From: an uncultured delta proteobacterium | GTDB lineage: Bacteria; Desulfobacterota; BSN033; UBA1163 | DNA: 64,000 nucleotides | Assembly: GCA_963827685.1 (NCBI GenBank) | Contig: CAWHBU010000006.1 | Coordinates: 32,001 to 96,000, forward strand | Direction of reading: 5' to 3' | Part shown: one piece after another, positions 13,726 through 30,339 of the stretch | How the letters are laid out: each line of letters starts with the position of its first letter | How positions within the stretch are numbered: the first letter of the stretch is position 1 | Program-made: the position numbers and the translations under genes | The notes under the pieces: model-generated | Databases searched by the model: none | What the model was told of the DNA's origin: nothing | The model's input: only the letters and a program-made list of their open reading frames with translations

Positions 13726-13750
13726 AAGGCGTGCGCGGGAGGTTAACGAA

Positions 13751-16197: not shown

Positions 16198-16252
16198 TCG
16201 AAGGACGACAACACGGGAATCTTTCTACAACGGTTTGGTTCTTGTATAGTCT

Positions 16253-16366
16253 CGTATCTTCACAATGAAAGAGCTTATCCGCAGAGGAGGAAAATACGGC
16301 TTCTTCAGTTCCTGCTGCGGCGGCGGACTCGGCGTGGCCACGGTTATCGAGAATCTTCAGTGTTAA
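16253..16366 (+). pseudogene. C-terminal remnant of a thiolase
   Basis: RIFTMKELIRRGGKYGFFSSCCGGGLGVATVIENLQC* matches the thiolase C-terminal CxGGGxG motif. No upstream body. Confidence 0.75.
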
Positions 16367-16556
16367 AGCTGAAGCCGGTCGGGAAAAACTGCCGGATAAA
16401 CCGCGTCGAAGAATTGTTTATTATGATCATCTTTTTCGCTTGCGCCTTCGCATGGATCGCGGGCGCAAGAGGTCTTTATATTCTCAAGGAAGATGCACCC
16501 CGTGAACGCTCAGGTATTGTTCATGGGGTGTTCGTATGATATAAAAGGAGCTTATC

Positions 16557-16637
16557 ATGAAAACTCTGCAGCACCTGTTGGAGCCGATAAAAATCGGCCC
16601 CCTCCAACTTGTCCTAACCTATTTGAAGACAGCATAA
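16557..16637 (+). pseudogene. N-terminal remnant of an OYE-family oxidoreductase
   Basis: AAGGAG RBS plus MKTLQHLLEPIKIGPLQL, similar to the start of 10821 (LFSPIKIKSLEL). Stops after 26 codons. Confidence 0.6.
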
Positions 16638-16657
16638 GAATATCAAAGGGGTAGATT

Positions 16658-17449
16658 ATGAACTATGAATTTATAAAGGTAGAAAAAAAGGGTCACGTGA
16701 CTACGGTGACGATCAATCGTCCTAATGTCATGAATTCCATCAGTCCATTGGTCAGTGTGGAAATGGACCATGTTTTCAATGATTTCGATGCCGACCCGCA
16801 ACAGTGGATATGCATCATTACGGGCGCGGGAGAGAAGGCTTTTTCGGCGGGCAACGACTTGAAATTTCAAGCGCAGAATGGCGCGGACAAGATACGGGAA
16901 ATCATGAAAGGCGTGAAAGGCGGCTTTGCCGGATTGACATCACGCTTTGATTGTTATAAACCTTTCATCGCGGCCGTCAATGGACTGGCTCTGGGGGGCG
17001 GGTTTGAAATTGCCCTTGCTTGCGATATCATTGTCGCTTCCGAAAACGCCAGTTTTGGATTGCCCGAACCGCGCGTCGGATTGATCCCCGGTTCGGGTGG
17101 TGTGCATCGCCTCCCCAGGCAGATTCCTTATCATATGGCCCAGTATATGATCATGACCTCCAAACGCATCACACCGCAGCAGGCCGTGCAGTATGGGCTT
17201 GTCGCGGAAGTTGTTCCTCTCTCGGAGCTGATTCCAACTGCGGAGAAGATCGCGGCGGAAATTCTCCTCGCGGCCCCTTTGTGTATTCGGGCGGCCAAGG
17301 AAGCAACTGTGAAAGGGTTGAACGTTACCCTGCAGGAGGCGGTAAACACTCAGTACCCGGGGCAGCTTGTCATGCGTCAATCCGAAGATTTTATTGAAGG
17401 GCCCAAGGCGTTCGCTGAAAAAAGGCCGCCCAATTGGAAGGGCAAATGA
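16658..17449 (+). CDS. Enoyl-CoA hydratase (CaiD-like)
   Basis: AFSAGNDLK, GGGFEIALACD, LPEPRVGL. Both catalytic Glu present. Confidence 0.92.
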   Translation: MNYEFIKVEKKGHVTTVTINRPNVMNSISPLVSVEMDHVFNDFDADPQQWICIITGAGEKAFSAGNDLKFQAQNGADKIREIMKGVKGGFAGLTSRFDCYKPFIAAVNGLALGGGFEIALACDIIVASENASFGLPEPRVGLIPGSGGVHRLPRQIPYHMAQYMIMTSKRITPQQAVQYGLVAEVVPLSELIPTAEKIAAEILLAAPLCIRAAKEATVKGLNVTLQEAVNTQYPGQLVMRQSEDFIEGPKAFAEKRPPNWKGK

Positions 17450-17553
17450 ATTGCCTATTGATTTTTATCTTAATCAACTGAAAAGGAGAAATTCCGCAGG
17501 ACCACTTGATTCTCGGCAATATCTACTTCTCCGAACCGGATTTCCCCAATAAG

Positions 17554-17568
17554 TGGTATGGCAAGTGC
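17554..17568 (+). promoter_or_regulatory. Possible sigma54 -24/-12 promoter
   Basis: TGGTATGGCAAGTGC has the correct GG-N10-GC spacing but is an imperfect consensus match. Confidence 0.3.
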
Positions 17569-17733
17569 GCCGGTTGGGGCCAGGTTGTTGCCATTCCCAG
17601 GGCCTTGTGCACCCCGTCGGTCATTAACGGGAGAAAGTAACGGGGAGAAAGTGATGATGGGGCTTCCCCGGTCGCGTTGGAAGAAGGGCGGCCTCGAATT
17701 TGAAATTACTTGGGTGAGGAAGGACTTTGTGAG

Positions 17734-18741
17734 ATGAAAGCAGCTGTGATGCATGGAGCGAGGGACATCAGAACAGAAATTGTGCCCGATCCGGTTCTCG
17801 AACCGCATGGGGTGATTATCAAGGTGAAGGCGTGCGGCGTGTGCGGTTCGGATCTGCACGTTTATAAACGCGACGAACAAGGGACCATCTTTGGACATGA
17901 ATTCAGCGGCGATGTGGTGGAAGTCGGATCTCAGGTTACGGGTATCGCGCCGGGCATGCGCGTGACCGCCGTAGGCTTCAAACCTTGCGGTAAATGCTTC
18001 TGGTGTGCACAGGGGAAGGGGCATCGCTGCTCGGATATGGCACTTCTCGGGTATAAATTTCCCGGTGCGATGGCAGAATATGTCCATATCCCCTACGCCG
18101 TCCCGGGGCGGACCGTTTTCCCGCTCCCCGCTGAATTAACCTACGAGGATGCGGCTTCGGTGGAGCCACTTTCCATTTCCTATTTCTCCGTCAACCGGGC
18201 TCAGCCCAAGGAAAATGAAACCATCGCCGTCCTGGGCCTGGGTGTGATCGGCCTGTATGCCGTTCAGGTTCTGAAGACCATGGGTGTTTCGAAGATTGTG
18301 GCCAGCGGCCACAGGCCTGCCCGCCTGGGAGCGGCCAAGATATGCGGCGCCGATATCGTGATTGATGCGGCGAAAGAGGACGCCATCGTGGCGGCCATGG
18401 CAGCGACAGACAAGATGGGTGTCAATACGGTCATTGAGTGCGCCGGTATGCAGGCGACCTTCGATCAATCCATCGCCATGGCCCGCGGGGGCGGGAAGAT
18501 CATACTGGTTGGAGTGTACGAGCAACCCCTTACCTGGAATCCCCTGCCTGTGATCTCCAAGAACCTCTCTCTGATCGGTTGTCTGGGCGGCAATTTCCCT
18601 GCGTGCATTGAACTCCTTAGGAGCGGGAAGGTCGACGCCAAGCCCATGATCACACACAGGTTCCCTCTGGACCAGGCCGCCGAGGCGTTCAGGACGCAAC
18701 TTCAGGATCCAGGCGCCATCAAAGTGTTGATCGTGCCTTGA
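17734..18741 (+). CDS. Zinc-dependent alcohol dehydrogenase (MDR)
   Basis: CGSDLH, GHEFSG, CGKCFWC..C, GLGVIG. Confidence 0.92.
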   Translation: MKAAVMHGARDIRTEIVPDPVLEPHGVIIKVKACGVCGSDLHVYKRDEQGTIFGHEFSGDVVEVGSQVTGIAPGMRVTAVGFKPCGKCFWCAQGKGHRCSDMALLGYKFPGAMAEYVHIPYAVPGRTVFPLPAELTYEDAASVEPLSISYFSVNRAQPKENETIAVLGLGVIGLYAVQVLKTMGVSKIVASGHRPARLGAAKICGADIVIDAAKEDAIVAAMAATDKMGVNTVIECAGMQATFDQSIAMARGGGKIILVGVYEQPLTWNPLPVISKNLSLIGCLGGNFPACIELLRSGKVDAKPMITHRFPLDQAAEAFRTQLQDPGAIKVLIVP

Positions 18742-18814
18742 GAGGGAAATTGGGTTTAGAGTTGATAGCCGGAAAACAGGCTTACATCCAAGAGATCGTT
18801 CTTAAAGAGAAGAA

Positions 18815-20554
18815 ATGAAGAAAAACTTGCTGTTGAACCCGCAAAAGATGGAACAGGTGATGGGCGACAAAAAAACGCAGGATCTGTTCAATCTTACGGT
18901 GGCTTTTTTCGAACAAAAGGGCAACTTTTCAATGCGTATTGACGCAAACTCGAAGCGCCTGCCTACAGACTGGTACCAGTTTATCAAGGAATCCGGCCTC
19001 TTCGCCATGTTGCTGACGCCTGCCGGCTATGGCGATGCCGACGCCCGATGGGATCACTACCGGATCACCTTCGCCAGCGAATTGTTGGGATTTTACGGAC
19101 TTTATCAGTATACCTTCCAGGTTTCCGTCCTTGGCGTGGGGCCTATCTGGATCGGCAGGAACGAGCGCCAAAAACGGGAACTGGCACAACTCCTCAAAGA
19201 AGGTCATGTCTTTGCATTCGGGATGTCAGAACGGAATCACGGCGCCGACCTCTACAGCAATGAAGCCAACATCACGCCGCTCGGAGACGGAAAATACATC
19301 GCCAACGGCGAAAAATACTACATCGGCAACTCTTCCCGTGCGCCCAAGATCAGCGTACTGGGGAAAAATGCGAAGACCGGCGACTTTGTTTTCTGGGTGG
19401 TCGACTCCCGGGATCGGCATTGCAAGTACTGCGGCGATATCGAGGTGGTCGGCATGTTCTCCGGGCAACTGGGAAAGTTTGAGATGATCGAATATCCCAT
19501 TACGGATGCCGACATTCTTGAAACCGGCAAAGCGGCCTTTGAAATGGGTCTTTCCACCGTGAACATCGGTAAGACCCAGACCAGCACGAAGAGCGTCGGC
19601 ATGGCGACACATATGCTGTACGAAGCGGTCACTCATGCTCACAACCGTTATTTGTACGGCAAGCGGGTCACCGATATGCCCCACATCAGAAGGGCGCTAT
19701 TGGAGGCGTGGGCTCGCATCACCATGTCCAGGCTATACTGCTACCGGGCGGTTGACTATTTCCGCCAGGCCGATGCGGAGACGGACCGCCGCTACCTGCT
19801 GTTCCATCCCGTTCAGAAAGCGCGCGCCGCCTCCGAGTGCGACAGGGCGGTCACCATGCTGCACAATGTCATGGCCGCCAAGGCTTATGAAACCGATACC
19901 TTTGCCGAAACAGCCGTACGGCAGATCGGCAACCCGGTTCGCCTCGAAGGTACCGCTCATGTGAATATGTCTCAGGCCGTTAAATTTATCGGCAACTATT
20001 TTAACGGCCATATCGATCTGCCGGAAATTCCCGACGGCAAGATGGTCAAAGACGACAGCCGCAATGTTTTTGTCCAGGGATTTGGCAAAGTAAAGACCAT
20101 CAGATTTGCTGATTACCGCAAGGCCTTTAGAGGGTGTGGATTGTCGAACGTCAAAATTTTCCTGGAACAGGCGGAAGCTTTCAGAGCCTTTAGCGACAAG
20201 AGTCCCATGACCAAAGATCAGGAAGCTAACGCGGACTTCATGCTCAACATCGCCGAAATTTTTGCAACGATCGTTTATGGCCAGCTCGTGTTTGAGAAAG
20301 CCAAGATCGAAGATATCGAGGATATGGTCATTGACCAATTGTTCAGTTATCTTGTGCGTGATATCAATGCTTATGTGATGCGTCAATTGAATGAGTACGC
20401 CGGTCACTTTGAGATGGGTCAGAGAGAGGGACTCTTGGCCGTCATCAGGGACCCTCACATCGATTTTAAGCGCGAAGAAGCCATCCTTCAGGATTATATT
20501 CTTGCCCTTAACGGCGTGTACAGGAGCAAGGGCGGCGTCGTTGTGAACGAATAA
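18815..20554 (+). CDS. Acyl-CoA dehydrogenase (long, 579 aa)
   Basis: FGMSERNHGADL, NGEKYYIGN, RLEGTAHVN. Confidence 0.88.
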   Translation: MKKNLLLNPQKMEQVMGDKKTQDLFNLTVAFFEQKGNFSMRIDANSKRLPTDWYQFIKESGLFAMLLTPAGYGDADARWDHYRITFASELLGFYGLYQYTFQVSVLGVGPIWIGRNERQKRELAQLLKEGHVFAFGMSERNHGADLYSNEANITPLGDGKYIANGEKYYIGNSSRAPKISVLGKNAKTGDFVFWVVDSRDRHCKYCGDIEVVGMFSGQLGKFEMIEYPITDADILETGKAAFEMGLSTVNIGKTQTSTKSVGMATHMLYEAVTHAHNRYLYGKRVTDMPHIRRALLEAWARITMSRLYCYRAVDYFRQADAETDRRYLLFHPVQKARAASECDRAVTMLHNVMAAKAYETDTFAETAVRQIGNPVRLEGTAHVNMSQAVKFIGNYFNGHIDLPEIPDGKMVKDDSRNVFVQGFGKVKTIRFADYRKAFRGCGLSNVKIFLEQAEAFRAFSDKSPMTKDQEANADFMLNIAEIFATIVYGQLVFEKAKIEDIEDMVIDQLFSYLVRDINAYVMRQLNEYAGHFEMGQREGLLAVIRDPHIDFKREEAILQDYILALNGVYRSKGGVVVNE

Positions 20555-20754: not shown

Positions 20755-21894
20755 ATGACAGCGATCGGGCAGTTGCAAGAATTCTACACCGAGAGGGGCA
20801 AGCGCGCCAGACAGTTGCACGAGTCGGGCAAGAAAGTGATCGGCTACTTTTGCTGCTTTGTGCCGGATGAGATCATCACCGCCTTCGATATGGTGCCCTA
20901 TCGTATCCAGGGCAGCCAATGCGACCCGATAGACCAAGCGGACGCTTACGTCGAGCCGATGGCCTGCCCTTACGCCAGGAGCTGCTTTAATCTGGCCCTC
21001 AATGGGAAATACGATTTCCTGGACGGTTTCGTGGCCCCCCACAGTTGCGATACGATAGAGCGCATGTATCACATCTGGCGTCATTCTATGCCTGCTCCTT
21101 TTTCCCATTTCATCAATGTCCCCCACATGATGGGACCAAGCTCAGACGAGTTCTACCGCAAGGAATTGGAGTTTTTCATCAAGGGACTTGAGACATGGTC
21201 CGGCAAGAAACTGAATACCGACAAGCTCAGAGGAGCAGTCAGGCTTTACAACGAGCGGCGAGCCGTCCTCAGAGAACTTTACGAATTGAGAAAACCGGAC
21301 CCGCCCCTTGTCTCCGGCACCGAGATCACCGTGGTGCTGGTGGCTGGCATGGGCATTCCCGCGGTGGAGCACATGGAACTTGTAAAAAAATTGATCGCTG
21401 AAATCAAGGCGTGTCCCCGGCCAAAGGCACAGAAGCTTCCCCGCATCTTTCTCTGGGGCAATGAGATAGATGACATTGCCTTCATCAAGCTCATCGAAGA
21501 GAGCGGTGCCTACGTGGTAATGGACGACCTTTGCACCGGCACCCGCTTCTTCTGGGACGACGTTCCGGAAACCAACGATCCCCTGGACGGTATTGTCAGC
21601 CGCTACATCCATACGCATTGCCCGCGGAGCTACATTCCCAAAGCGGAAACTCGACAGAAAGACTTGGAGAACCGTTACGGGTACATCCACCATTTTATCA
21701 AAGAATGGAATGGCAACGGGGTTATCTTCTACATCGTCCGCTACTGCGATACCTGCGAGCTGGAGGGGCCGGACCTGCGCGAATACCTGAACGAAATGAA
21801 ACTGCCGGTGCTGATGATAGAGGATGATTACTCCACGTCCACGATCGGCCAACTCCGCACCCGGGTCCAAGCGTTCCTGGAGATGATTGCTTAA
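20755..21894 (+). CDS. 2-hydroxyacyl-CoA dehydratase / class I benzoyl-CoA reductase subunit (BzdN/BcrC/HgdB-like)
   Basis: GYFCCFVPDEII, CPYARS, HSCD, DDLCTG, YCD, QLRTRVQAFLEM. Confidence 0.88.
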   Translation: MTAIGQLQEFYTERGKRARQLHESGKKVIGYFCCFVPDEIITAFDMVPYRIQGSQCDPIDQADAYVEPMACPYARSCFNLALNGKYDFLDGFVAPHSCDTIERMYHIWRHSMPAPFSHFINVPHMMGPSSDEFYRKELEFFIKGLETWSGKKLNTDKLRGAVRLYNERRAVLRELYELRKPDPPLVSGTEITVVLVAGMGIPAVEHMELVKKLIAEIKACPRPKAQKLPRIFLWGNEIDDIAFIKLIEESGAYVVMDDLCTGTRFFWDDVPETNDPLDGIVSRYIHTHCPRSYIPKAETRQKDLENRYGYIHHFIKEWNGNGVIFYIVRYCDTCELEGPDLREYLNEMKLPVLMIEDDYSTSTIGQLRTRVQAFLEMIA

Positions 21895-21905
21895 GGAGAG
21901 TAACC

Positions 21906-23195
21906 ATGGACGAAAAAGAACGGGCGAAAACAACAGCCGAAAAAGGGACTGAATCTGCCCGCAAGGTCAGGGCCATGGTGAAAAATATTTATCGGAGCGC
22001 CAATGAGGCCAAACCGCAGGGGAAAAAAGTGGCCTATTTCATGGTCGCCTCTCAGTACGATGAAATCGTGCGCGCCATGGACATAGTGCCGCTGCCTACC
22101 GAGAACTACGCCGGCCTGTGCGCAGCCAAACGCGAGATGGACCGCTTTCTTCTTAAGGCAGAGGCGGACGGCTACTCCCAGGTACTCTGCAGCTACGCTC
22201 GTATCGGCCTTGGCTTTGACAGCTTGAGAAAAGACCTGGGTGGTGTGCCGGAAGATTCCCCCGACGGCGGGATGCCTCAGCCAGACATGATGCTCGGTAG
22301 CAGCGGCGTCTGCGACCCGCGTTTTAAGTGGTACCAGGCAGCGGGGCGCTTCATGGAGGTGCCTACCTATAGTATTGATGTGGTATGGCCACCGGTTTTC
22401 AGTGACCTGAACGAGGTGCGCAGTCACTATATCAGATACCAGAAAGAGCAGTTCCATGGTTTGATTGCATTTCTCGAACAGCAGACCGGCAGAAAAATGG
22501 ACGAGGAACGCCTCTGGGAGACCATCCGTCTGGGTGACGAGGCCTGGCGGCTCTGGTACGAGATAGACCGGATGCGCGTGGCCGTGCCCGGCCCCATGCC
22601 AACCCAGGATCACTTCAACGCCATGGTGCCGGCTTACTACTACTGTGGCACCCAGGAGGCCGTGGACTTCTACAACGAGCTCTACGCCGAAGTGAAATCC
22701 AAAGTAGAAAACAAGATAGGGGTGGTCCCAAAAGAAAAGCACCGCATCCTCTATGGCGGCGGGCTTCCCCCATGGCACACCCTTTGGATCTTCAATTACT
22801 TTGAGGGCTTCGGCGCGGTTTTCGTAATTGAAAACGTATACCGCGGTTCTGACCCGGTGGAAGTCCCAAGTCACGTCAAGGACCCTGTTGAATACCTAGC
22901 CTGGCGCTCCTTCCTCCGCCTCACACAACGCCACGAGAAAGCCAAGGCCAATAGCGGTAATCCTATTGTTGAACGTTTACTGGAGATGATCAAGGATTAT
23001 CAGATTGACGGTGTGGTCTTCCACGCCTGCCGCTCCTGTCGGGCCACCACCATCGGGCAGGTGCATATCAAGAACCTGTTAAGCCAGTTTACCGATATCC
23101 CCATGATGCAGCTTGTCTCCGACATGGTAGATCTCAGGGATTACTCGGAAGCGCAGTGGAAGACACAGATCGGCGCCTTCATCGAGGCGCTCTAA
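21906..23195 (+). CDS. 2-hydroxyacyl-CoA dehydratase / class I benzoyl-CoA reductase subunit (BzdO/BcrB/HgdA-like)
   Basis: ENYAGLCAA, LCSYAR, CDPRFKW, HACRSCR, SDMVD. Confidence 0.88.
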   Translation: MDEKERAKTTAEKGTESARKVRAMVKNIYRSANEAKPQGKKVAYFMVASQYDEIVRAMDIVPLPTENYAGLCAAKREMDRFLLKAEADGYSQVLCSYARIGLGFDSLRKDLGGVPEDSPDGGMPQPDMMLGSSGVCDPRFKWYQAAGRFMEVPTYSIDVVWPPVFSDLNEVRSHYIRYQKEQFHGLIAFLEQQTGRKMDEERLWETIRLGDEAWRLWYEIDRMRVAVPGPMPTQDHFNAMVPAYYYCGTQEAVDFYNELYAEVKSKVENKIGVVPKEKHRILYGGGLPPWHTLWIFNYFEGFGAVFVIENVYRGSDPVEVPSHVKDPVEYLAWRSFLRLTQRHEKAKANSGNPIVERLLEMIKDYQIDGVVFHACRSCRATTIGQVHIKNLLSQFTDIPMMQLVSDMVDLRDYSEAQWKTQIGAFIEAL

Positions 23196-23229
23196 ACCGG
23201 CACCGCTTATGCTAAACGCTGCATTAAAA

Positions 23230-23426
23230 AGGTAGTTGGGTATGCCCCCAACCTTTACCAAGCGGTTCCTTACTATGTTTTATGGGTAACATGCGATGTC
23301 ACCTCAGGTGACCTTTGAAATATGTTTGGAAACGGAGTAGCAAAACGTTTAAAGGTCCCGCCCTGCCTTCGCCGGAGCGGCTTCGCGCAGGCAGGTGTAA
23401 AGGTTTCCCAGCACACCCAACTACCT
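23230..23426. repeat. About 200-bp element with imperfect terminal inverted repeats and a nested REP-like hairpin
   Basis: AGGTAGTTGGGTATGC / GCACACCCAACTACCT (15/16) plus AACCTTTAC / GTAAAGGTT. Internal CCTGCCT..AGGCAGG (23362-23395) and GTCACCT-C-AGGTGAC. Confidence 0.7.
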
Positions 23427-23494
23427 CTTAAAATGTTTTTTATTCAACGGTTGGGTTAAGCTCGGCAACCTGACGGAAAGGAACGAAAGACAGA

Positions 23495-24325
23495 ATGCCT
23501 TTTGCCGGCATTGACATCGGCTCCACCATGACCAAGGTGGTCATCATTGACAGGGACGGTATCATTCTATCTTCGGTGATCGGTCCCACCGGCGCCGAAC
23601 ATCGCCATTTGGCCCTCGAGGTCATGGGCGAAGCCATCACGAAAGCAGGCCTTGCCTTTGAGCAGCTTGATTTTATTGTGTCTACAGGCTACGGGCGCAT
23701 CAATGTCCCTTTTAACGATAAACAAATTACAGAGATCACCTGCCACAGCCGGAGCATCCGGGCACTTTTCCCCACCGCGCGCATCATCATCGATATCGGT
23801 GGGCAGGATTCTAAAGGAATCAAGCTGGACAGCGACGGCAAGGTAATGAACTTTATTATGAACGATAAGTGCGCTGCCGGTACCGGCCGTTTCCTCGAAG
23901 TGATTGCCGAAGCCCTGGGTATAGAGCTGACTGAGATGGGAGAGCTTTCTTTAAAGGCCAAGGAATACGTCAAAATTTCCAATACCTGCACCGTCTTTGC
24001 CGAGCATGAAGTGACGACCAGGCTCACAGAGGGAGCAACGATCCCGGAAATTGTAGCCGGCCTGCACGAGGCATTTGCCGCCCGGGTAGTCAATATGGTA
24101 CGGTCTCTTGGCATAGAAAAGGATGTGGTGGTCACGGGCGGGGGAGCCAAGAATATCGGATTGGTCAAAGCCATCGAGGACAAGGTAGGCTTTCCAGTGT
24201 TGGTGCCACCGGAGCCGCTCCTCACAGGTGCCCTGGGAGCAGCCCTGCTGGGCAGGGATTTCGTTGCCCGTGGCGTTACCCCTGATCGCCAGCGAAGATT
24301 AGAAGGAGTTACCTTCTTCAAATGA
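23495..24325 (+). CDS. ASKHA ATPase activase subunit (BcrA/BcrD/BzdPQ/HgdC family)
   Basis: GIDIGST, STGYGR, DIGGQDSK, MNDKCAAGTGRFL, SNTCTVFAE. Confidence 0.92.
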   Translation: MPFAGIDIGSTMTKVVIIDRDGIILSSVIGPTGAEHRHLALEVMGEAITKAGLAFEQLDFIVSTGYGRINVPFNDKQITEITCHSRSIRALFPTARIIIDIGGQDSKGIKLDSDGKVMNFIMNDKCAAGTGRFLEVIAEALGIELTEMGELSLKAKEYVKISNTCTVFAEHEVTTRLTEGATIPEIVAGLHEAFAARVVNMVRSLGIEKDVVVTGGGAKNIGLVKAIEDKVGFPVLVPPEPLLTGALGAALLGRDFVARGVTPDRQRRLEGVTFFK

Positions 24326-25110
24326 GCGATAACCAAAAATATTACGCTGGAGTTGATATCGGCTCTGCATTTATCAAAGCAGTGCTGGCATGCCACAAAC
24401 AAATCATGGCTTCTAAAATTGTGGGCTCTGGGGGCAACTATAAAGAAACGGCGCGGAGAGTTCTTGATGAAGTGCTATCCAAGGCCGGAGTTAGCCGTGA
24501 AAAGCTTTCCGGCATTGTGGTCACAGGTATTGGGGCAGAAAGCGCTCCCTTTCGGGCACGTCAGGTCTCCGATATTTCATGCCAGGCTGTGGGTTGCCGT
24601 TCTCTCTTCTCTTCCGCCCGCATTGTGATAGACATAGGCGGGCAGTTCACCAAGGCCGCCAAGCTGACGCCCAAGGGGAGAATTGCCAACTTTTTGATGA
24701 GCGAGAAGTGTGCCACCGGGTCCGGGCGTTTCTTACAGGTGATTGCCCGCATACTTCGCATCAACATAGAGGACATCGGTCCCCTTTCTCTAAAATCCCA
24801 AACGCCGGTTGAGTTTTCCACCAACTGTGCTGTCTTTGCCGAATCCGAGACTGTCTCCAGGATAGCTGAAGGTGCCCGGATGGAAGACATCCTGGCCGGG
24901 GTGCACCGTGCCATGGCAGCCAAGGTGGCCATGCTGGTGAAAGGGCTGAAAATGGAGCCGGACGTAGTGCTTACCGGCGGCGGGGGTGAGGATGCGGGGC
25001 TTGTCTTAGCCGTCAGCGAAGCGCTTGGAGTGAAAGTACTGGTGCCGGAGCAACCACGACTCACCGCCGCCATGGGCGCGGCCCGCCTTGCGGAAGAAGA
25101 CAAACCTTGA
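24322..25110 (+). CDS. Second ASKHA ATPase activase subunit
   Basis: GVDIGSA, DIGGQFTK, MSEKCATGSGRFL, STNCAVFAESE. ATGA overlap with the previous gene. Confidence 0.92.
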   Translation: MSDNQKYYAGVDIGSAFIKAVLACHKQIMASKIVGSGGNYKETARRVLDEVLSKAGVSREKLSGIVVTGIGAESAPFRARQVSDISCQAVGCRSLFSSARIVIDIGGQFTKAAKLTPKGRIANFLMSEKCATGSGRFLQVIARILRINIEDIGPLSLKSQTPVEFSTNCAVFAESETVSRIAEGARMEDILAGVHRAMAAKVAMLVKGLKMEPDVVLTGGGGEDAGLVLAVSEALGVKVLVPEQPRLTAAMGAARLAEEDKP

Positions 25111-25144
25111 ACCAACGAATACGGCGGAGAAAGGAGAAAAAAAG

Positions 25145-25912
25145 ATGGCGATCTGGGCGGAGATGACCGAAGACTTCAAAACTTTATTGCGACTGAGGAC
25201 TGAGCCGGTCGTTTTCCGCCGGCTGGAGAAAGCCGAAGACCTGGACAAAATCGCGAACGTAGTTCGCGTTAAAAGGGGATTCACTTACTGCCAGGTTCCC
25301 TTCCTGGTGAGAGTGATGGGACAGACCGTGGGAATTACCAAGGAGGACCCGATCGGCAACCGCTGCACCCGGCTTCATGGGCTGCGGCCAGCGACCGAAA
25401 ACAGTATGCAAAACGAGGCGGCGATGCTGTCTGCCACCTGGTTCGCCTCTCCTGAAGAAGCCTTGAAACAGCAACGCGAGACACCGCGCCTTCCCGTTGG
25501 GGAGGCCATCGTTGTCGCTCCCCTGGGAAAGGAGAAGTTTGAACCCGAAGTGGTCTCGATCTACGGCAACCCTGCCCAGGTCATGATGATCCTGTGCGGA
25601 CTGCAGAAAGAGAAATATGAGCGCTTCCAGTTCTTTTTCATCGGCGAAGGTGCCTGTGCCGACTCGCTGGCCCAGTGCTATGTCAGCGGCAAGCCTGCCG
25701 TGGCAATTCCCTGTTATGGTGAGAGGACAATGGGACAGGTGGCGGATGACGAAATCGTCGTCGCTCTGTCGCCGGGGGAGCTCGGGCGCGCTGTTTCGGG
25801 AATGAAGAAACTAGCGAAAATAGGGTTCAAGTACCCGATCCCTTTCATCGGAGGATTGGCCGATCCGACTCCTATCCTCGCCCAGTTTTATCCCGACCGG
25901 GCCAAGAAATAA
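25145..25912 (+). CDS. DUF169 family protein
   Basis: L.L.TEPV, TYCQ, PEVVSIYGNPAQ, GACAD, PCYGER. AAGGAG RBS. Confidence 0.8.
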   Translation: MAIWAEMTEDFKTLLRLRTEPVVFRRLEKAEDLDKIANVVRVKRGFTYCQVPFLVRVMGQTVGITKEDPIGNRCTRLHGLRPATENSMQNEAAMLSATWFASPEEALKQQRETPRLPVGEAIVVAPLGKEKFEPEVVSIYGNPAQVMMILCGLQKEKYERFQFFFIGEGACADSLAQCYVSGKPAVAIPCYGERTMGQVADDEIVVALSPGELGRAVSGMKKLAKIGFKYPIPFIGGLADPTPILAQFYPDRAKK

Positions 25913-26003: not shown

Positions 26004-26735
26004 ATGGAGTCTGTATCCTTATTCATCCCTTGCACGGTTGACCTTTTCCTTCCCCATATCGGAGAAGCAACAGTCTCCCTCCTCCGCCGGGTGGGGGTCA
26101 ATCCGATCTACCATCAGGAACAAACCTGCTGTGGCCAACCGGCCATCAACGCCGGATATCGTGAACAGGCGAAAAAAACGGCCAAACATTTTATCCAAGT
26201 CTTCGAGGATGACGAAAAGGTAATCAGTCCCTCCGGCTCCTGTGTAGGCATGGTCAAGGTTCACTATCCGGAACTTCTTGCTGAGGAGCCGCAGTGGCGG
26301 AAGCGGGCGGAAGAGCTGAGTCTCCGGGTCTATGAGTTCTCCCAGTACCTGGTCGATATCCTGAAAGTAGAAAATGTCGGCACCTCCTTTGAAGGAAAAG
26401 TGGCCTACCATGAATCCTGTCATATCCTACGCGGCTTGGGAGTTTCCGAACAGCCCAAAAAATTGATCAGTGCGGTTCAAGGGACCCAACTGGTTCCCTT
26501 GAATGCGGCGGATGCTTGCTGTGGGTTCGGAGGGGAGTTTGCCATTGATTATCCCGATATCTCCGAGTCGATGCTCAGGGATAAAGTGGAGAATTACTTA
26601 GCGAGCGGGGCCGACATTCTGCTCCTTTGCGAACCGGGTTGCCTTCTCAATATTGGCGGGTTTCTTAGCAGAAACTTTCCTGGGAAAAAAGTGATGCATC
26701 TGGCCAGTTTTTTAGCCCAACGCCAGGAGATTTGA
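26004..26735 (+). CDS. lutA: LutA/LldE-like CCG-domain Fe-S protein
   Basis: QTCCGQP, SPSGSC, YHESCH, CCGFGG. Confidence 0.88.
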   Translation: MESVSLFIPCTVDLFLPHIGEATVSLLRRVGVNPIYHQEQTCCGQPAINAGYREQAKKTAKHFIQVFEDDEKVISPSGSCVGMVKVHYPELLAEEPQWRKRAEELSLRVYEFSQYLVDILKVENVGTSFEGKVAYHESCHILRGLGVSEQPKKLISAVQGTQLVPLNAADACCGFGGEFAIDYPDISESMLRDKVENYLASGADILLLCEPGCLLNIGGFLSRNFPGKKVMHLASFLAQRQEI

Positions 26736-26926
26736 AAACACAGATGTCACAGAGAAGGTGCGATTCAGCTCTTTGAAACCGAATGGGATTGGCCCAACAG
26801 TTCCCGCCAAGGGCTGGACTTTCAAAGGTTTAGAATGCGGTCTTTTATACTTTTATGGTATTGAAATGGAAGAAGTGAAGGAACGCCGCACTTGGGCTTC
26901 TATGGTTAGATGATTAGAGGAGATGG

Positions 26927-28390
26927 ATGGAAGTTAAGACAGAACAATTTTCGGAGGTAGCCAGGGAGGGGCTGAAGAATGCCCACGCTCATGCCTTCCT
27001 GAAGTTGCGGGCCCCCATGATCCGGATGAGGCGGGAGACTGCGCTTTCAACATTCCCCGACGCTGCCGCAGCCCAGGCCTACGGGGCAGTCATCCGGGGA
27101 GAAGCGATTGCACGGCTTCCTGAACTCTTGGAGGAGTTTGAAAAAAATGCGCTGGCCAACGGAGCTAAAGTTTTTTGGGCCCGGGATGCCAACGAGGCGA
27201 ACCAATACATCGTAAATCTAACCAAGGAGAGGGGAATCAAATATGTGACCAAAGGGAAATCCATGGTGACAGAGGAAATAGGTCTCAATGAAGCTCTGGA
27301 GAAAAATGGCGTGAAGGCCTGGGAGACAGACCTCGGCGAGTTCATCATCCAGCTCTTGCATCTCCCCCCATTCCATATTGTGGGCCCTGCCATTAATGTA
27401 CCCGTCGAAAAGGTGCGGGATCTGTTCATGGAAAAAATCAACCTGAAGGAGCCGACATTGGATCCTATCCAGCTGGGCCATGCAGCTCGGATTTTCCTGC
27501 GGGACAAATTTCACCGGGTCGACATGGGCATTACGGGCGTGAACATAGCGGTAGCTGAAACCGGCACTATTATTAATGTAGAAAACGAAGGAAACATCCG
27601 CTTCACCAAATCATCCCCCCGCACGCAGATATCGGTGATGAGCCTGGAAAAAGTGGTCCCCACTTTGGAGGATGCTCTGCATTTGGTACGGCTCTTGTGT
27701 CGGAACTGTACCGGGCAAAAACTTTCGTGTTATGTTTCGATGGACAGCAGTCCTAAAAAAGGCGGCGAAATGGACGGACCGGAAGAACTCTTCATTGTCA
27801 TTGTCGATAATGGACGGTCCAAAATTTACTATGATGAAATCGCTCGTGAGGCGATGCGTTGCATCCGCTGCGGCGCCTGTTTGAATAGCTGCCCGGTTTA
27901 CCAGCAAATCGGGGGGTATGCCTATGGCTGGGCTTATTCAGGACCTATGGGCCAAGTTCTGAATCCGCTCCTTCTTGGGTTAGAGAGAACGCAGGATCTT
28001 TATCGGGCCACGACCCTTTGTGGGTCTTGCAAAAGCATCTGTCCGGTTGGTATTGATCATCCCAGTCTATTCCTTTATTACCGGGCGAAAGATGTATTGG
28101 GAGATGCAGCCTTGCGGTCCAAAAAACGCCCCGTGATGGAAAGAATTTTTTTCCGGTTATGGACCTGGGCCGTCAGCCGGTCCTGGTTGTGGAATGGGGG
28201 AGTTCGAATGGTCCGGCCTTTCATCAACAAGGAGGCGCATCAAGGAGTGCTCAGCAAAATAAAAGGCCTTTTCGGGGGATGGTTTAGAAGCAGGGATTTG
28301 CCCGCCATGGCTGAAAAGACTTTTCATGATCGTTGGAAAGAAAAACAGAAGGCAGAAGGCAGAAACCAGAAAGCGGAAGGCACGAGATAA
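26927..28390 (+). CDS. lutB: LutB/LldF-like LUD + 4Fe-4S protein
   Basis: KGKSMVTEE, ETDLGEFI, ENEGN, CIRCGACLNSCPVY. Confidence 0.92.
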   Translation: MEVKTEQFSEVAREGLKNAHAHAFLKLRAPMIRMRRETALSTFPDAAAAQAYGAVIRGEAIARLPELLEEFEKNALANGAKVFWARDANEANQYIVNLTKERGIKYVTKGKSMVTEEIGLNEALEKNGVKAWETDLGEFIIQLLHLPPFHIVGPAINVPVEKVRDLFMEKINLKEPTLDPIQLGHAARIFLRDKFHRVDMGITGVNIAVAETGTIINVENEGNIRFTKSSPRTQISVMSLEKVVPTLEDALHLVRLLCRNCTGQKLSCYVSMDSSPKKGGEMDGPEELFIVIVDNGRSKIYYDEIAREAMRCIRCGACLNSCPVYQQIGGYAYGWAYSGPMGQVLNPLLLGLERTQDLYRATTLCGSCKSICPVGIDHPSLFLYYRAKDVLGDAALRSKKRPVMERIFFRLWTWAVSRSWLWNGGVRMVRPFINKEAHQGVLSKIKGLFGGWFRSRDLPAMAEKTFHDRWKEKQKAEGRNQKAEGTR

Positions 28391-28399
28391 GAGGTTTAA
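28344..28399 (+). repeat. Degenerate heptamer tandem array at the lutB-lutC junction
   Basis: aacagaa ggcagaa ggcagaa accagaa agcggaa ggcacga gataaga ggtttaa. Confidence 0.65.
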
Positions 28400-28400
28400 A

Positions 28401-29072
28401 GTGGAACAAAGTGCGCGAGATGAAATTCTGGGTAAACTTAAGTCTACCCCGAAAAAATCAATACCTCCCCGACCGGATAGGCTCGTCCTGAGGGAGCTCT
28501 CTCTGGCCAGGGAGGAATTGATAGAGACTTTTTCGAAAAACCTTGTACAAGAAACAGGGATCGTCCATCGAGTCAAGGATCGCCGAGAAGCCCTGGAGAA
28601 ACTTTCTCAAATCGCCAAGGAAGAAGGATTGAGGAAGGTGATGGTCACTACGGATGACGTCGTGGCTTCGCTGAATTTAGCGGCCTGGGGGAAAGAAAAC
28701 GATGTTCGGGTCATGACTCCAAAGGATTTTGGCAACCGGGATTCTTTCAGGGATGCAGTCTTTGTGGAAGCCGATGCAGGGGTGACCGGGGCTGATTTCG
28801 CCGTCGCCGAGTCAGGAACGCTGGGCCTCATTCATAACGAGGACCAGGCGAGGTTAGTCTCTCTGGCTCCCATTCTGCACGTTGCTATTGTGCCGGTGAA
28901 AAGGATGGTGGCGGTCTATGAACAGGTGATGAAGGAAGTCTTTGGGAAAAAGGAGAACCTCCCCAGCCAATTCTGTTTCATCACTGGGCCGAGCATGACC
29001 GCGGATATCCGGGGAATACCGTTCAAAGGGATGCACGGACCAAGGAAAGTCATCGTAATTCTGCTTGGATAA
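28401..29072 (+). CDS. lutC: LutC/LldG-like LUD domain protein
   Basis: ARDEILGKL, AVAESGT, FITGPSMTADI..GMHGP. GTG start after GAGG. Confidence 0.88.
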   Translation: MEQSARDEILGKLKSTPKKSIPPRPDRLVLRELSLAREELIETFSKNLVQETGIVHRVKDRREALEKLSQIAKEEGLRKVMVTTDDVVASLNLAAWGKENDVRVMTPKDFGNRDSFRDAVFVEADAGVTGADFAVAESGTLGLIHNEDQARLVSLAPILHVAIVPVKRMVAVYEQVMKEVFGKKENLPSQFCFITGPSMTADIRGIPFKGMHGPRKVIVILLG

Positions 29073-29089
29073 AAATGGCGGAGAATGAT

Positions 29090-30331: not shown

Positions 30332-30339
30332 GAGTGATC

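What the first reader, a model, noticed from the sequence alone, without database searches (positions are those of the whole stretch)
20755..25110. Four-subunit class I benzoyl-CoA-reductase-like complex in a probable strict anaerobe
Seen: two HgdAB/BcrBC-family genes plus two distinct, translationally coupled ASKHA activases, each with both cluster cysteines. Established: 2-hydroxyacyl-CoA dehydratase activators (HgdC, HadI) are homodimers, heterodimeric ATPase modules typify class I BCRs (BcrAD, BzdPQ), and strict anaerobes usually use tungsten class II BCR. No Oah-like gene or ferredoxin is adjacent. Inference: an ATP-driven Birch-type reductase or radical dehydratase of new specificity.
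Basis: partly seen in the sequence, partly recalled or inferred. Interest (0 to 1): 0.75.

Follow-up and report, generated by a model that had tools for sequence, protein, structure and literature searches.

The report
Uncharacterised four-gene ATP-driven iron-sulfur acyl-CoA enzyme
Four adjacent genes encode an ATP-powered iron-sulfur radical enzyme built like a benzoyl-CoA reductase, but its catalytic site differs from that of every characterised relative, so its substrate and reaction are still unknown.

Summary
The four genes are real: N379 at 20755-21894, O429 at 21906-23195, and two distinct activase ATPases at 23495-24325 and 24322-25110 with a 4-nt overlap. None of the four reaches an NCBIfam equivalog cut-off for Bzd, Bcr, Had or double-cubane proteins.

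In a tree, O429 sits in a large, well-supported clade with no characterised member. That clade lies outside both the BzdO clade and the HadB/HgdA-like clade.

The enzyme is a hybrid:
- N379 keeps all six cysteines of the BzdN/DCCP double-cubane cluster.
- All four genes lie together in 20 of 25 related loci.
- The second ATPase has a degenerate phosphate-2 motif, as BzdP-like proteins do.
- O429 lacks BzdO's ring-pocket and proton-donor residues (W46, H131, Q274, E381/L383). It carries a clade-specific CDPR motif and a HadB-like RSC(R/K) motif.

The genome already has class II BamB, Had and Oah. The cluster lies on a GC-rich island not found in same-family genomes. Neighbours are mosaic: an OYE reductase, LutABC, a LarA-type racemase, hydratases and CoA ligases, but no small ferredoxin.

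My odds are 0.45 for a dehydratase-type elimination, 0.35 for an ATP-stoichiometric reductase of a non-benzoyl substrate, and 0.03 for a true benzoyl-CoA reductase. The scan noted distant look-alikes on other DNA before (e1-4603843, e1-2811515).

The parts
20755..21894 (+). N379: small HGD-D subunit (BzdN/BcrC/HadC-like). It is the predicted carrier of a six-Cys double-cubane [8Fe-9S] cluster, with ligands C33, C71, C98, C260, C289 and C331.
   Evidence: Pfam HGD-D 321.5 bits. The best PDB match is BzdN 8s02_B at 195 bits, ahead of HadC at 156 bits. The six Cys columns are shared with 8/8 BzdN equivalogs, E. coli YjiM and 10/10 orthologues. The ligand list for BzdN comes from PMC11971306.
21906..23195 (+). 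O429: catalytic HGD-D subunit (BzdO/HadB-like). It has three Cys (C95, C136, C378) for a [4Fe-4S] cluster with an open iron site, E66, Y97, and the clade-specific CDPR (R139) and RSCR (R379) motifs.
   Evidence: Pfam HGD-D 215.4 bits. PDB matches are BzdO at 130 bits and HadB at 106 bits. C95 and C378 are invariant, and E66, Y97 and C136 are at least 90% conserved, in 128 sequences.
23224..23432 (.). A 209-nt repeat element with 22-nt terminal inverted repeats, lying inside the 299-nt O-Q spacer.
   Evidence: Inverted repeat at 23224-23245 / 23411-23432, 86% complementary. The element gives 85 blastn hits across the genome. It is present in L007 and absent in the 94% relative L075. There was no Rfam match.
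23495..24325 (+). Q276: ASKHA activase/ATPase with the canonical phosphate-2 motif DIGGQD and both cluster cysteines.
   Evidence: BcrAD_BadFG 214.4 bits. TIGR00241 262.4 bits, above its cut-off of 125.4. The best PDB match is HadI 4eht at 241 bits, followed by MbdQ.
24322..25110 (+). P262: second, divergent ASKHA ATPase. It is 45% identical to Q276, has a degenerate phosphate-2 motif (DIGGQF), and keeps both cluster cysteines.
   Evidence: It overlaps Q276 by 4 nt.
25088..25912 (+). DUF169 protein whose ORF overlaps the end of P262. It is found after P only in the window and its two closest relatives. Its function is unknown.
   Evidence: PF02596 147.6 bits. No NCBIfam match and no PDB match. 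Present in L074 and L075 at 93-95% identity.
10821..12755 (+). OYE-type Fe-S flavoenzyme (FMN domain plus FAD/NAD domain; FadH/NCR/BaiCD-like). It lies directly upstream of N in 9 related loci, and here it is separated from N by an 8-kb block.
   Evidence: Pfam. PDB matches are FadH 1ps9 at 367 bits and NCR 6qkg at 353 bits. BaiCD scores 555 bits against a cut-off of 825.
12949..20554 (+). Accessory block: SDR (12949-13725), crotonase (13709-14548), AMP-forming CoA ligase (14698-16197), crotonase (16658-17449), Zn-ADH (17710-18741) and a divergent 579-aa acyl-CoA dehydrogenase (18815-20554).
   Evidence: Pfam and NCBIfam. The block was not found (tblastn) in L007-L010 or in 12 of the 13 metagenome loci. 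The crotonase-ADH pair lies directly upstream of N in L086. ACAD579 is only a weak ACAD match of at most 50 bits.
26004..31769 (+). LutA/LutB/LutC-like 2-hydroxyacid oxidation genes, a LarA-family racemase and a split SAF + GD_AH (UxaA/GarD-type) dehydratase. This set is linked to the four genes in 8 of 25 loci.
   Evidence: Pfam and NCBIfam. Linkage holds in the window, L007, L009, L010, L075, L078, L080 (where the set lies upstream of N) and L084.

Best explanation
What is shown. The four genes encode a heterotetramer-type member of the BCR/HAD ('archerase'-driven) iron-sulfur radical enzyme superfamily. It belongs to a third, uncharacterised lineage. An asymmetric ATPase pair, with Q canonical and P degenerate in the phosphate-2 motif, shares a bridging [4Fe-4S] cluster.

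What is inferred. The ATPase pair uses MgATP to push a low-potential electron into N379, which should hold a double-cubane cluster. From there the electron passes to the three-Cys [4Fe-4S] cluster of O429, where an acyl-CoA thioester binds.

The reaction I think most likely. This is a redox-neutral, ketyl-radical elimination of the 2-hydroxyacyl-CoA dehydratase type, acting on a hydroxy-acid-derived CoA ester that is not benzoyl-CoA. It would give an enoyl-CoA. The neighbouring hydratases, dehydrogenases and the OYE-type reductase would then process that product. The electron would be recycled, so ATP would be used only catalytically.
For: Lineage:
- O429 lies in a 48-row clade (SH-aLRT 99) that is separate from BzdO equivalogs (100) and from HadB-like/HgdA sequences (99).
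- None of the 115 nearest cluster representatives scanned reaches any equivalog cut-off. The only strong family hits are HadB, in 7 of 115 at 275-311 bits. None hits BzdO or BcrB at E<=1e-80.

Active site:
- E66, C95, Y97, C136 and C378 are kept. These residues are common to BzdO and HadB.
- The BzdO-specific residues are replaced: W46->S, S44->V, H131->R, Q274->L, E381->R, G382->A, L383->T.
- The roughly 30-residue BzdO insertion is missing.
- The RSCR motif resembles the RSCK motif of HadB-like proteins.

Context:
- A LarA-family 2-hydroxyacid racemase and LutABC are linked in 8 of 25 loci, once in a different gene order (L080).
- MaoC-type or crotonase hydratases and CoA ligases or family III CoA-transferases recur.
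- No small ferredoxin ORF is found in any of 25 loci, against 4 of 8 Bzd-like loci of the same phylum.

Genome and clade:
- The genome already has BamB (1175 bits), Had (480 bits against a cut-off of 339) and Oah (547 bits against 464).
- Two orthologue-bearing genomes rated 100% complete (G286, G296), and G070 (93% complete), have no Oah at E<=1e-120.
- Inside the sister clade B, 9 of 21 loci have a three-Cys (HAD-like) small subunit with the same CDPR catalytic motif. The six-Cys motif is therefore not tied to the chemistry.
Against: - N379 keeps the full six-Cys double-cubane motif of BzdN. In the one solved dehydratase the equivalent subunit binds only a [4Fe-5S] cluster (PMC11971306 Discussion).
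- Two different ATPase genes are kept beside N and O in 20 of 25 loci. No characterised dehydratase has this, but all class I BCRs do.
- The gene order N-O-ATPase-ATPase is that of bzdNOPQ, not hadI-hadB-hadC.
- The top PDB matches are BzdN and BzdO, not HadC and HadB.
- An OYE-type dienoyl-CoA/naphthoyl-CoA-reductase-like gene sits directly upstream of N in 9 loci. This mirrors the OYE genes near class-I-like reductases in naphthalene degraders (PMC12016498, passages).
- LutABC/LarA linkage is absent from the 7 loci of the 78-82% identity group. The loci that do show it are close kin, so they are not independent.
- No activity was measured.
Confidence: 0.45

Rival explanations
1. An ATP-stoichiometric reductase of the class I BCR type with a different substrate. 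Two electrons per turnover would be stored on the double-cubane cluster of N379 and delivered at O429 to an aryl-, dienoyl- or alicyclic acyl-CoA. Examples are a substituted benzoyl-CoA or a partly reduced ring such as tetrahydronaphthoyl-CoA. Hydration and beta-oxidation-like steps would follow.
For: - N379 has the six-Cys motif of BzdN and DCCP.
- A heterodimeric ATPase is conserved in 20 of 25 loci, and its P subunit is degenerate in the same motif as BzdP-like proteins.
- The gene order is that of bzdNOPQ.
- The best PDB matches are BzdN and BzdO.
- An OYE gene lies directly upstream in 9 loci, and MaoC pairs lie next to the genes in L045 and L048. The thn operon has thnBCDE with the thnH/I MaoC pair and nearby OYE genes (PMC12016498 passages).
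- Earlier notes of this scan, which I did not check, read cresol- and phenol-degradation operons on other contigs of this genome.
- Bzd equivalogs exist in 8 of 401 genomes of the phylum.
Against: - The residues that hold and protonate the ring in BzdO are not conserved.
- The clade lies outside BzdO. Its O subunit is only 22-30% identical to Bzd equivalogs and Bzd-like proteins of the phylum.
- No small ferredoxin or ferredoxin-reducing enzyme lies beside it, unlike 4-5 of 8 Bzd-like loci.
- The three-Cys variants in sister clade B keep the same active-site motif and both ATPases.
- Stoichiometric ATP use is costly for syntroph-type hosts. This last point is an inference.
Confidence: 0.35
2. 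A genuine class I benzoyl-CoA reductase (Bzd or Bcr type) that makes cyclohexa-1,5-diene-1-carbonyl-CoA.
For: It has a four-subunit architecture and family-level Pfam matches.
Against: - All subunits score far below the equivalog cut-offs: BzdN 196 against 454, BzdO 150 against 449, BzdQ 182 and 137 against 380, BcrC 186 against 421, BcrB 86 against 487.
- It lies outside the BzdO clade.
- W46, H131, Q274 and L383 are replaced.
- The genome has BamB.
- The cluster is absent from same-family genomes, most of which do have Oah (8 of 11).
Confidence: 0.03
3. A DCCP/YjiLM-like reductase that acts on a small molecule or another substrate that is not a CoA ester, using the double-cubane cluster as its active site.
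For: The best NCBIfam hit of N379 is the double-cubane model at 230 bits, and N379 has the six-Cys motif.
Against: - The score is below the cut-off of 350.
- DCCPs are encoded by a single catalytic gene with one reductase gene (PMC7317905 passages). Here a HadB/BzdO-type catalytic partner with an open-site [4Fe-4S] cluster is always present.
- The neighbours are CoA ligases, CoA-transferases, hydratases and acyl-CoA dehydrogenases.
Confidence: 0.07

Closest known systems
BzdNOPQ, the Azoarcus/Aromatoleum-type class I benzoyl-CoA reductase (BzdNO structure PDB 8S02; PMC11971306)
   Same: - The gene order is the same: small subunit, catalytic subunit, two ATPases.
- The small subunit has six Cys for an [8Fe-9S] cluster.
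- The catalytic subunit has three Cys plus Glu65 and Tyr97.
- One ATPase is canonical and one is degenerate in the phosphate-2 motif.
- It is the best PDB match for N379 and O429.
   Different: - Identity to BzdO and BzdN equivalogs is only 24-33%.
- All equivalog cut-offs are missed.
- It lies outside the BzdO clade.
- W46, S44, H131, Q274, E381, G382 and L383 are replaced, and the BzdO insertion is missing.
- No ferredoxin gene lies alongside.
- The best tree has the two ATPases arising by a duplication of their own, with support 96/92. An AU test does not reject common origin with BzdP (p = 0.21).
(R)-2-hydroxyisocaproyl-CoA dehydratase HadBC with its activator HadI (C. difficile; PDB 3O3M, 4EHT), together with the HgdAB/HgdC type
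   Same: - The catalytic subunit has a three-Cys open-site [4Fe-4S] cluster, the conserved Glu, and an RSC(K/R) motif.
- Both ATPases match HadI best in the PDB, at 241 and 209 bits.
- The locus is linked to 2-hydroxyacid enzymes and CoA activation.
   Different: - There are two different ATPase genes, where HadI is a single gene.
- The small subunit has six Cys where HadC has three.
- The small subunit is encoded first.
- HadB and HadC score 169 and 180 bits against cut-offs of 750 and 700.
- It lies outside the HadB-like/HgdA clade.
- Arg139 (the CDPR motif) stands where HadB-like proteins have a hydrophobic residue.
[quoted passage not shown]
   Same: - It is a four-subunit class-I-like enzyme in sulfate-reducing Deltaproteobacteria-type hosts.
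- The operon logic includes crotonases, a MaoC pair and 3-hydroxyacyl-CoA dehydrogenase.
- OYE genes lie nearby (one search compared).
   Different: - I could not fetch Thn sequences, so similarity is untested.
- The thn operon carries a ferredoxin (thnF), and these loci do not.
- The Bzd-like loci of the phylum that sit in aromatic-type contexts are only 22-28% identical to O429.
DCCP/DCCP-R (Carboxydothermus, PDB 6ENO/7YYL) and E. coli YjiM/YjiL
   Same: The six Cys ligand columns are shared, and the electron donor is an ASKHA reductase.
   Different: - DCCP has one catalytic gene and one ATPase gene.
- The seventh Cys of the DCCP motif is Gln52 here (motif from PMC7317905).
- The score of 230 bits is below the cut-off of 350.
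MbdONQP, the 3-methylbenzoyl-CoA reductase (PDB 9G87, 9GAI)
   Same: It has a four-subunit architecture, and MbdQ is the second-best PDB match for both ATPases.
   Different: MbdO and MbdN match more weakly than Bzd or Had, at 80 and 111 bits. I found no paper on these structures (one search gave 0 hits).

Membership tests
Class I benzoyl-CoA reductase, Bzd type (BzdNOPQ) | Four genes: small subunit, catalytic subunit and two different ASKHA ATPases. | tested here: met
   All four genes lie together in 20 of 25 related loci.
Class I benzoyl-CoA reductase, Bzd type (BzdNOPQ) | Small subunit with six Cys ligands of the [8Fe-9S] double cubane (BzdN C36/73/100/263/293/327). | tested here: met
   C33/71/98/260/289/331 align with the all-Cys columns of 8/8 BzdN equivalogs. 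The ligand list is from PMC11971306. The cluster itself was not shown.
Class I benzoyl-CoA reductase, Bzd type (BzdNOPQ) | Catalytic-site residues of BzdO: Glu65, His131, Trp46, Gln274, Tyr298, Leu302, Leu383. | tested here: not met
   Only Glu65 (E66), plus the cluster Cys and Tyr97, are kept. H131->R, W46->S, Q274->L and L383->T. The Y298/L302 region is not alignable.
Class I benzoyl-CoA reductase, Bzd type (BzdNOPQ) | NCBIfam equivalog scores (TIGR03190, TIGR03191, TIGR03192). | tested here: not met
   196.1 against 453.8; 149.5 against 448.6; 181.6 and 136.7 against 380.2.
Class I benzoyl-CoA reductase, Bzd type (BzdNOPQ) | Placement inside the BzdO clade. | tested here: not met
   BzdO equivalogs plus P0266 form a clade with support 100 that excludes the window. 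The window lies in a separate clade with support 99 (quick IQ-TREE, 66 of the 124 full-length representatives used).
Class I benzoyl-CoA reductase, Bzd type (BzdNOPQ) | ATP-dependent reduction of benzoyl-CoA to the 1,5-dienoyl-CoA. | not testable with these tools
   This needs an anaerobic enzyme assay.
Class I benzoyl-CoA reductase, Thauera type (BcrCBAD) | NCBIfam equivalog scores (TIGR02263, TIGR02260, TIGR02259, TIGR02261). | tested here: not met
   185.6 against 421.2; 85.5 against 486.6; 174.5 and 120.2 against 578; 136.8 and 114.2 against 312.9.
2-Hydroxyacyl-CoA dehydratase (HadBC/HgdAB/FldBC/LcdAB with one activator) | Catalytic subunit with a three-Cys [4Fe-4S] cluster with an open iron site, and the conserved Glu. 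| tested here: met
   C95, C136, C378 and E66. This feature is shared with BzdO, so it does not discriminate.
2-Hydroxyacyl-CoA dehydratase (HadBC/HgdAB/FldBC/LcdAB with one activator) | A single, homodimeric activator gene. | tested here: not met
   Two ATPase genes 45% identical to each other are conserved as Q-type and P-type lineages.
2-Hydroxyacyl-CoA dehydratase (HadBC/HgdAB/FldBC/LcdAB with one activator) | Small subunit with a three-Cys [4Fe-5S] cluster. | tested here: not met
   N379 has the six-Cys motif. However, the genome's own HadC-like protein (L002) also has six Cys, so this feature may not define the whole family.
2-Hydroxyacyl-CoA dehydratase (HadBC/HgdAB/FldBC/LcdAB with one activator) | NCBIfam equivalog scores (HadB NF052455, HadC NF052456) and clade placement. 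| tested here: not met
   169.1 against 750 and 179.9 against 700. It lies outside the HadB-like/HgdA clade, which has support 99. No Fld or Lcd references could be fetched.
Double-cubane cluster protein (DCCP/YjiM) | One catalytic gene (homodimer) with one reductase gene; NF040772 cut-off. | tested here: not met
   There are two different HGD-D genes and two ATPase genes. The scores are 230.4 and 95.6 against 350.

The most novel reading that the evidence does not exclude
The clade is a third functional class of the BCR/HAD superfamily. It would be a stable heterotetramer whose asymmetric ATPase pair arose by its own duplication, converging on the BCR design. It would carry out a reaction that is neither benzoyl-CoA dearomatisation nor classical 2-hydroxyacyl-CoA dehydration. 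One example would be an ATP-coupled reductive removal of a hydroxyl or amino group from, or reduction of, a carboxylated or hydroxylated ring or enoyl CoA ester. The clade-specific Arg139 and Arg379 beside the open iron site would bind an anionic group of that substrate. Such an enzyme would show how energy-limited syntrophs and Chloroflexota pay ATP for a hard reduction.
Probability: 0.25. Interest if true: 0.8.

Novelty: new variant of a known kind. Interest (0 to 1): 0.55.

Why it matters
Genes of this family are routinely annotated as 'benzoyl-CoA reductase/2-hydroxyglutaryl-CoA dehydratase' and counted as markers of anaerobic aromatic degradation (names). This clade is abundant in metagenomes. 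The search found 880 homologues, and the 120 listed are 56-93% identical. They carry labels of Syntrophobacteraceae, Syntrophus, Smithellaceae and Chloroflexota. The clade fails the tests for both named functions.

It also separates features that were thought to travel together:
- The six-Cys double cubane appears and disappears within one clade.
- A heterodimeric ATPase is kept whichever form of the small subunit is present.

Characterising one member would show whether the BCR hardware implies reductase chemistry. It would also correct many annotations.

Tried and rejected
1. I first took the 646-aa AOR next to Oah and Had (L006) for BamB. It matches AOR (302 bits) better than BamB (198 bits). 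The real BamB is L059:1444-3411. A second 655-aa candidate, in L060, is also not BamB.
2. I searched plasmid records for named reference enzymes. No characterised BCR turned up. The Azoarcus sp. KH32C plasmid system is a different, fused type. I used only the Fusobacterium hgdCAB-like locus (unannotated) and E. coli yjiLM as references.
3. I tested the idea that the six-Cys motif goes with two ATPases and the three-Cys motif with one. It does not hold. Eight of 9 three-Cys clade-B loci still have both ATPases.
4. I tested whether the 579-aa ACAD and the 586-aa protein that follows P in relatives are homologues. There is no similarity. The 586-aa protein is a weak alpha/beta-hydrolase match.
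5. The context of the genome's native paralogue set (L001) gave no metabolic clue.
6. Rfam on 20000-26500 gave no match at E<=0.1. There are no tRNAs in the window. The consensus scan found no terminator-like site on the + strand in the O-Q spacer.
7. Co-occurrence with Oah: 5 of 8 orthologue-bearing genomes (G000 included) have it, against 110 of 401 overall. Most of those genomes are in one family, and three orthologue-bearing genomes lack Oah, so this is no evidence of an obligate link.
8. The ESM Atlas look-up gave only generic HGD-D clusters.
9. Literature searches found no description of this clade. A search for the Mbd structures found no paper. The Geobacter paper concerns an unrelated orphan activase.
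10. The AU test could not reject a common origin of the P-type ATPase with BzdP-like proteins (p = 0.209). I therefore do not claim convergence as shown.

Full report
OBSERVATION

The window holds four same-strand ORFs at the stated coordinates. N379 (20755-21894) and O429 (21906-23195) are HGD-D family proteins, with E-values of 1.1e-95 and 2.1e-63. Q276 (23495-24325) and P262 (24322-25110) are BcrAD_BadFG ATPases, with E-values of 2.8e-63 and 1.3e-46.

Q and P are 45% identical and overlap by 4 nt. Both carry the two cysteines that bridge the [4Fe-4S] cluster in solved activators (translations; alignments to HadI; conservation).

N and O are 11 nt apart. O and Q are 299 nt apart. That spacer holds a 209-nt element with 22-nt terminal inverted repeats, and the element gives 85 blastn hits over the genome. 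No + strand terminator-like site and no Rfam family lie in the spacer.

WHAT IT IS NOT

None of the four proteins reaches an NCBIfam equivalog cut-off.
- N379: double_cubane 230 against 350, BzdN 196 against 454, BcrC 186 against 421, HadC 180 against 700.
- O429: HadB 169 against 750, BzdO 150 against 449, BcrB 86 against 487.
- Q276 and P262: BzdQ 182 and 137 against 380, BcrA 175 and 120 against 578, BcrD 137 and 114 against 313.
- Only the domain-level activase model TIGR00241 is passed.

The genome (5.2 Mb, 14 contigs) already has the strict-anaerobe route for benzoyl-CoA. Its relatives are labelled Thermodesulfobacteriota.
- A 655-aa protein matches Geobacter BamB over its full length at 1175 bits.
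- Had scores 480 bits against a cut-off of 339, and Oah scores 547 bits against 464.

The genome also has three further HGD-D pairs and ten activase domains in all.

WHERE IT SITS IN THE FAMILY

The closest solved structures are BzdN and BzdO (8S02; 195 and 130 bits), followed by HadC and HadB (156 and 106 bits), MbdN and MbdO, and DCCP.

A search of 1.84 billion cluster representatives found 1576 homologues at E<=1e-3, and the nearest is only 50% identical. Of the 124 full-length representatives I scanned 115. None reaches an equivalog cut-off. Seven have HadB scores of 275-311 bits. None has a BzdO or BcrB hit at E<=1e-80.

To obtain labelled references I searched 401 genomes of the phylum with the BzdO model. 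Eight genomes have matches over the cut-off. Bzd-type class I enzymes therefore do occur in this strictly anaerobic phylum.

I then built a tree of 95 catalytic-type sequences. It used IQ-TREE in quick mode with SH-aLRT support only, 66 of the 124 representatives, and N-type subunits plus YjiM as outgroup.
- The window groups with its orthologues (support 100).
- Next comes a sister group that holds the genome's own paralogue set (support 98).
- All of these lie inside a 48-row clade (support 99).
- BzdO equivalogs (100) and a HadB-like/HgdA clade (99) lie in a different, 33-row group (support 94).

Thauera-type Bcr, Mbr, Thn, Fld and Lcd sequences could not be fetched and are not in the tree.

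COFACTOR SITES

Fuchs et al. 2025 (PMC11971306; sections 7-9 and 12 and passages read) give the BzdN double-cubane ligands as Cys36/73/100/263/293/327. They give the BzdO [4Fe-4S] ligands as Cys95/128/380. They name Glu65 and His131 as acid/base groups, and Trp46, Tyr97, Leu302, Leu383, Tyr298 and Gln274 as residues around the substrate.

In an alignment of 44 N-type sequences, the window and 10 of 10 orthologues have Cys in all six columns where 8 of 8 BzdN equivalogs and E. coli YjiM have Cys. These are window residues C33, C71, C98, C260, C289 and C331.

In O429 the three Cys, Glu66 and Tyr97 are kept. They are invariant or at least 90% conserved in 128 sequences. The BzdO-specific residues are replaced: W46->S, S44->V, H131->R (motif CDPR, shared with the paralogue clade), Q274->L, E381->R, G382->A and L383->T. 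The BzdO insertion after Tyr298 is absent. The RSCR motif resembles the RSCK of HadB-like proteins.

The enzyme is therefore a hybrid. It has Bzd-like hardware and a catalytic pocket that is neither Bzd-like nor fully Had-like.

THE ATPASE PAIR

In a careful IQ-TREE analysis of 42 activases, the Q-type (18 rows, support 100/97) and the P-type (10 rows, 100/99) join each other (96/92). This grouping excludes BzdP-like proteins (100/100), a BzdQ equivalog, HgdC and YjiL. The topology suggests a duplication within this lineage. However, an AU test does not reject P-type plus BzdP-like as one clade (p = 0.209).

The Q-type keeps the canonical phosphate-2 motif DIGGQD, as do HgdC, YjiL and BzdQ. 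The P-type is degenerate (DIGGQF in clade A, DvGdly in clade B), and so are BzdP-like proteins (DVGAEE). The pair is thus asymmetric in the same way as in Bzd enzymes.

THE SISTER CLADE TESTS ONE INFERENCE

The genome's native paralogue set (contig C1, 41-55% identical to the window set) represents a clade that is present in 11 of 11 same-family genomes. I examined 21 loci of this clade.
- 19 loci have all four genes.
- 12 loci have six-Cys N subunits, with the gene order P-N-O-Q.
- 9 loci have three-Cys N subunits (SCCS[LI]C), with the order N-O-Q-P. Eight of these 9 still have both ATPases.

Both subclades carry the CDPR motif. The double cubane is therefore probably ancestral and dispensable. 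It does not by itself indicate reductase chemistry.

DISTRIBUTION AND CONTEXT

True orthologues (78-82% identity) occur in 7 of the 400 other sampled genomes. All are in two other families (f33 and f60), and none is in the window's own family.

Several lines point to a resident island rather than a native locus or contamination.
- Window positions of roughly 10-52 kb have 50-55% GC, against 46.8% for the genome.
- The left flank HtrA-sigma-CoaBC is syntenic in 4 of 4 same-family genomes, but none of them has the island genes beyond it.
- The spacer repeat is shared with other contigs of the genome.

I compared 25 loci: the window, 4 genome-contig loci, 7 loci from genome handles and 13 metagenome contigs.
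- All four genes lie together in 20 loci.
- Four loci are cut by a contig end.
- One locus (L077) lacks Q and P.

The neighbours are mosaic.
- An OYE-type Fe-S flavoenzyme (FadH 367 bits, NCR 353 bits in the PDB) occurs in 11 loci. It lies directly upstream of N in 9 of them.
- LutABC, a LarA-family racemase and a split UxaA-type dehydratase occur in 8 loci. In one of these (L080) the set lies upstream of N.
- DUF169 follows P in 3 loci.
- A crotonase-ADH pair lies directly upstream of N in L086.
- MaoC-type hydratases lie next to the genes in L043, L045 and L048.
- AMP-ligases or family III CoA-transferases, alpha/beta-hydrolases, nitroreductase-ferredoxin fusions and ABC transporters recur.

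The 7.6-kb SDR-crotonase-ligase-crotonase-ADH-ACAD block between the OYE gene and N (window 12949-20554) is specific to this genome.

No locus has a small ferredoxin ORF (0 of 25). By contrast, 4 of 8 Bzd-like loci of the phylum have one. Those loci also carry crotonases, Zn-ADH, an Oah-like protein and ferredoxin-reducing enzymes.

MECHANISM AND ODDS

Shown: a conserved four-gene unit with all the cluster-binding motifs of an ATP-driven electron-injection enzyme that acts at an open-site [4Fe-4S] cluster.

Inferred: the substrate is an acyl-CoA. This rests on the family and on the CoA-activating, hydratase and dehydrogenase neighbours.

Evidence for a dehydratase-type elimination (0.45):
- the replaced Bzd pocket,
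- HadB-like nearest neighbours in sequence space,
- the LarA and LutABC linkage,
- no ferredoxin supply beside the genes,
- three-Cys variants with the same catalytic motif,
- a complete class II benzoyl-CoA pathway elsewhere in the genome,
- three orthologue-bearing genomes without Oah.

Evidence for a stoichiometric reductase of another substrate (0.35):
- the six-Cys subunit,
- the conserved asymmetric ATPase pair,
- the bzd-like gene order,
- BzdN and BzdO as best structural relatives,
- the adjacent OYE gene and MaoC pairs, which recall the thn operon of naphthalene degraders (PMC12016498, passages only).

A true benzoyl-CoA reductase (0.03) and a DCCP-like enzyme that does not act on a CoA ester (0.07) are unlikely.

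EARLIER NOTES OF THIS SCAN

Three earlier notes concern distant look-alikes on other genomes, sharing 4-17 of 180 short words with O429. They reached a similar reading: an uncharacterised sister lineage of BzdNOPQ that is probably linked to 2-hydroxy acids. They also pointed to 8S02 and PMC11971306. My own tree, motif and context analyses agree on the lineage, but they leave the chemistry more open than those notes do.

NOVELTY

The superfamily and the four-subunit design are known. This clade, its CDPR catalytic motif, its own Q/P ATPase lineages and the switching between six-Cys and three-Cys small subunits were not described in any paper found. I rate it a new variant of a known kind, of moderate interest. 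It becomes testable with one heterologous expression.

Noticed in passing
window about 10700-52100: A GC-rich (50-55%) island of about 41 kb sits in a 46.8% GC genome. It begins right after coaBC and ends at an ORF6N/KilA-N-type gene (52146-52799). The HtrA-sigma-CoaBC flank is syntenic in 4 of 4 same-family genomes, and none of them carries the island genes. No tRNA lies in the window.
   Followed up: partly
window 23224-23432: A 209-nt REP/MITE-like element with 22-nt terminal inverted repeats lies in the O-Q spacer. It gives 85 blastn hits across the genome's contigs. A core of about 35 nt accounts for most of the listed matches. It is present at the same site in L007 and absent in L075.
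   Followed up: partly
window 26004-33502: This stretch holds a LutA/LutB/LutC-like set, a LarA-family racemase with no equivalog assignment (best hit a malate-racemase model, 198 bits against a cut-off of 500), a split SAF + GD_AH dehydratase (a small and a large subunit), and an IlvD that passes its cut-off (657 bits against 618). The substrate of this module is unknown.
   Followed up: no
G000:C1:128093-132559 (L001:6010-10635): A native paralogous four-gene set in the order P-N-O-Q, 41-55% identical to the window set. It has six-Cys N subunits and no metabolic neighbours. The clade is present in 11 of 11 same-family genomes.
   Followed up: partly
loci L096-L102, L104, L109 (clade B2): A subclade of the paralogue family has lost three of the six double-cubane cysteines (pattern SCCS[LI]C). 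It keeps both ATPase genes in 8 of 9 loci.
   Followed up: yes
G000:C2:1032968-1034698 (L003:6957-8747): An orphan ATPase pair: a BzdP-like gene plus a protein that passes the BzdQ equivalog cut-off (393 bits against 380). No HGD-D catalytic genes are nearby. The pair lies next to MoeA/MobB and an ABC transporter.
   Followed up: no
G000:C1:96355-98088: One 1417-aa open frame holds two activase domains, so it is a fused form. It was not examined further.
   Followed up: no
L118 (G026:C11), 4289-13317: A Bzd-like N/O pair without Q/P-type ATPases lies beside a RACo-type ASKHA activator and two nitrogenase-component-1-type (Oxidored_nitro) genes. This is an unusual pairing.
   Followed up: no
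L119 (G242:C19), 1173-7614: A Bzd-like N/O pair without ATPases lies next to a molybdopterin oxidoreductase, a 4Fe-4S protein and an NrfD-type membrane subunit.
   Followed up: no
L077 (metagenome contig), 8833-12712: This is the only related locus in which N and O (85-88% identical) are not followed by Q and P. About 930 nt after O there is a GNAT acetyltransferase gene.
   Followed up: no
G000:C6:232127-233197 and G000:C3:398519-399577: Two of the genome's 13 AOR-family matches contain an in-frame stop, one TGA and one TAA. They could be a selenocysteine codon, a pseudogene or a sequencing error.
   Followed up: no
window 18815-20554: A 579-aa protein with only weak acyl-CoA dehydrogenase similarity (at most 50 bits in Pfam, NCBIfam and the PDB). 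It lies directly upstream of N and is not found in any related locus.
   Followed up: partly
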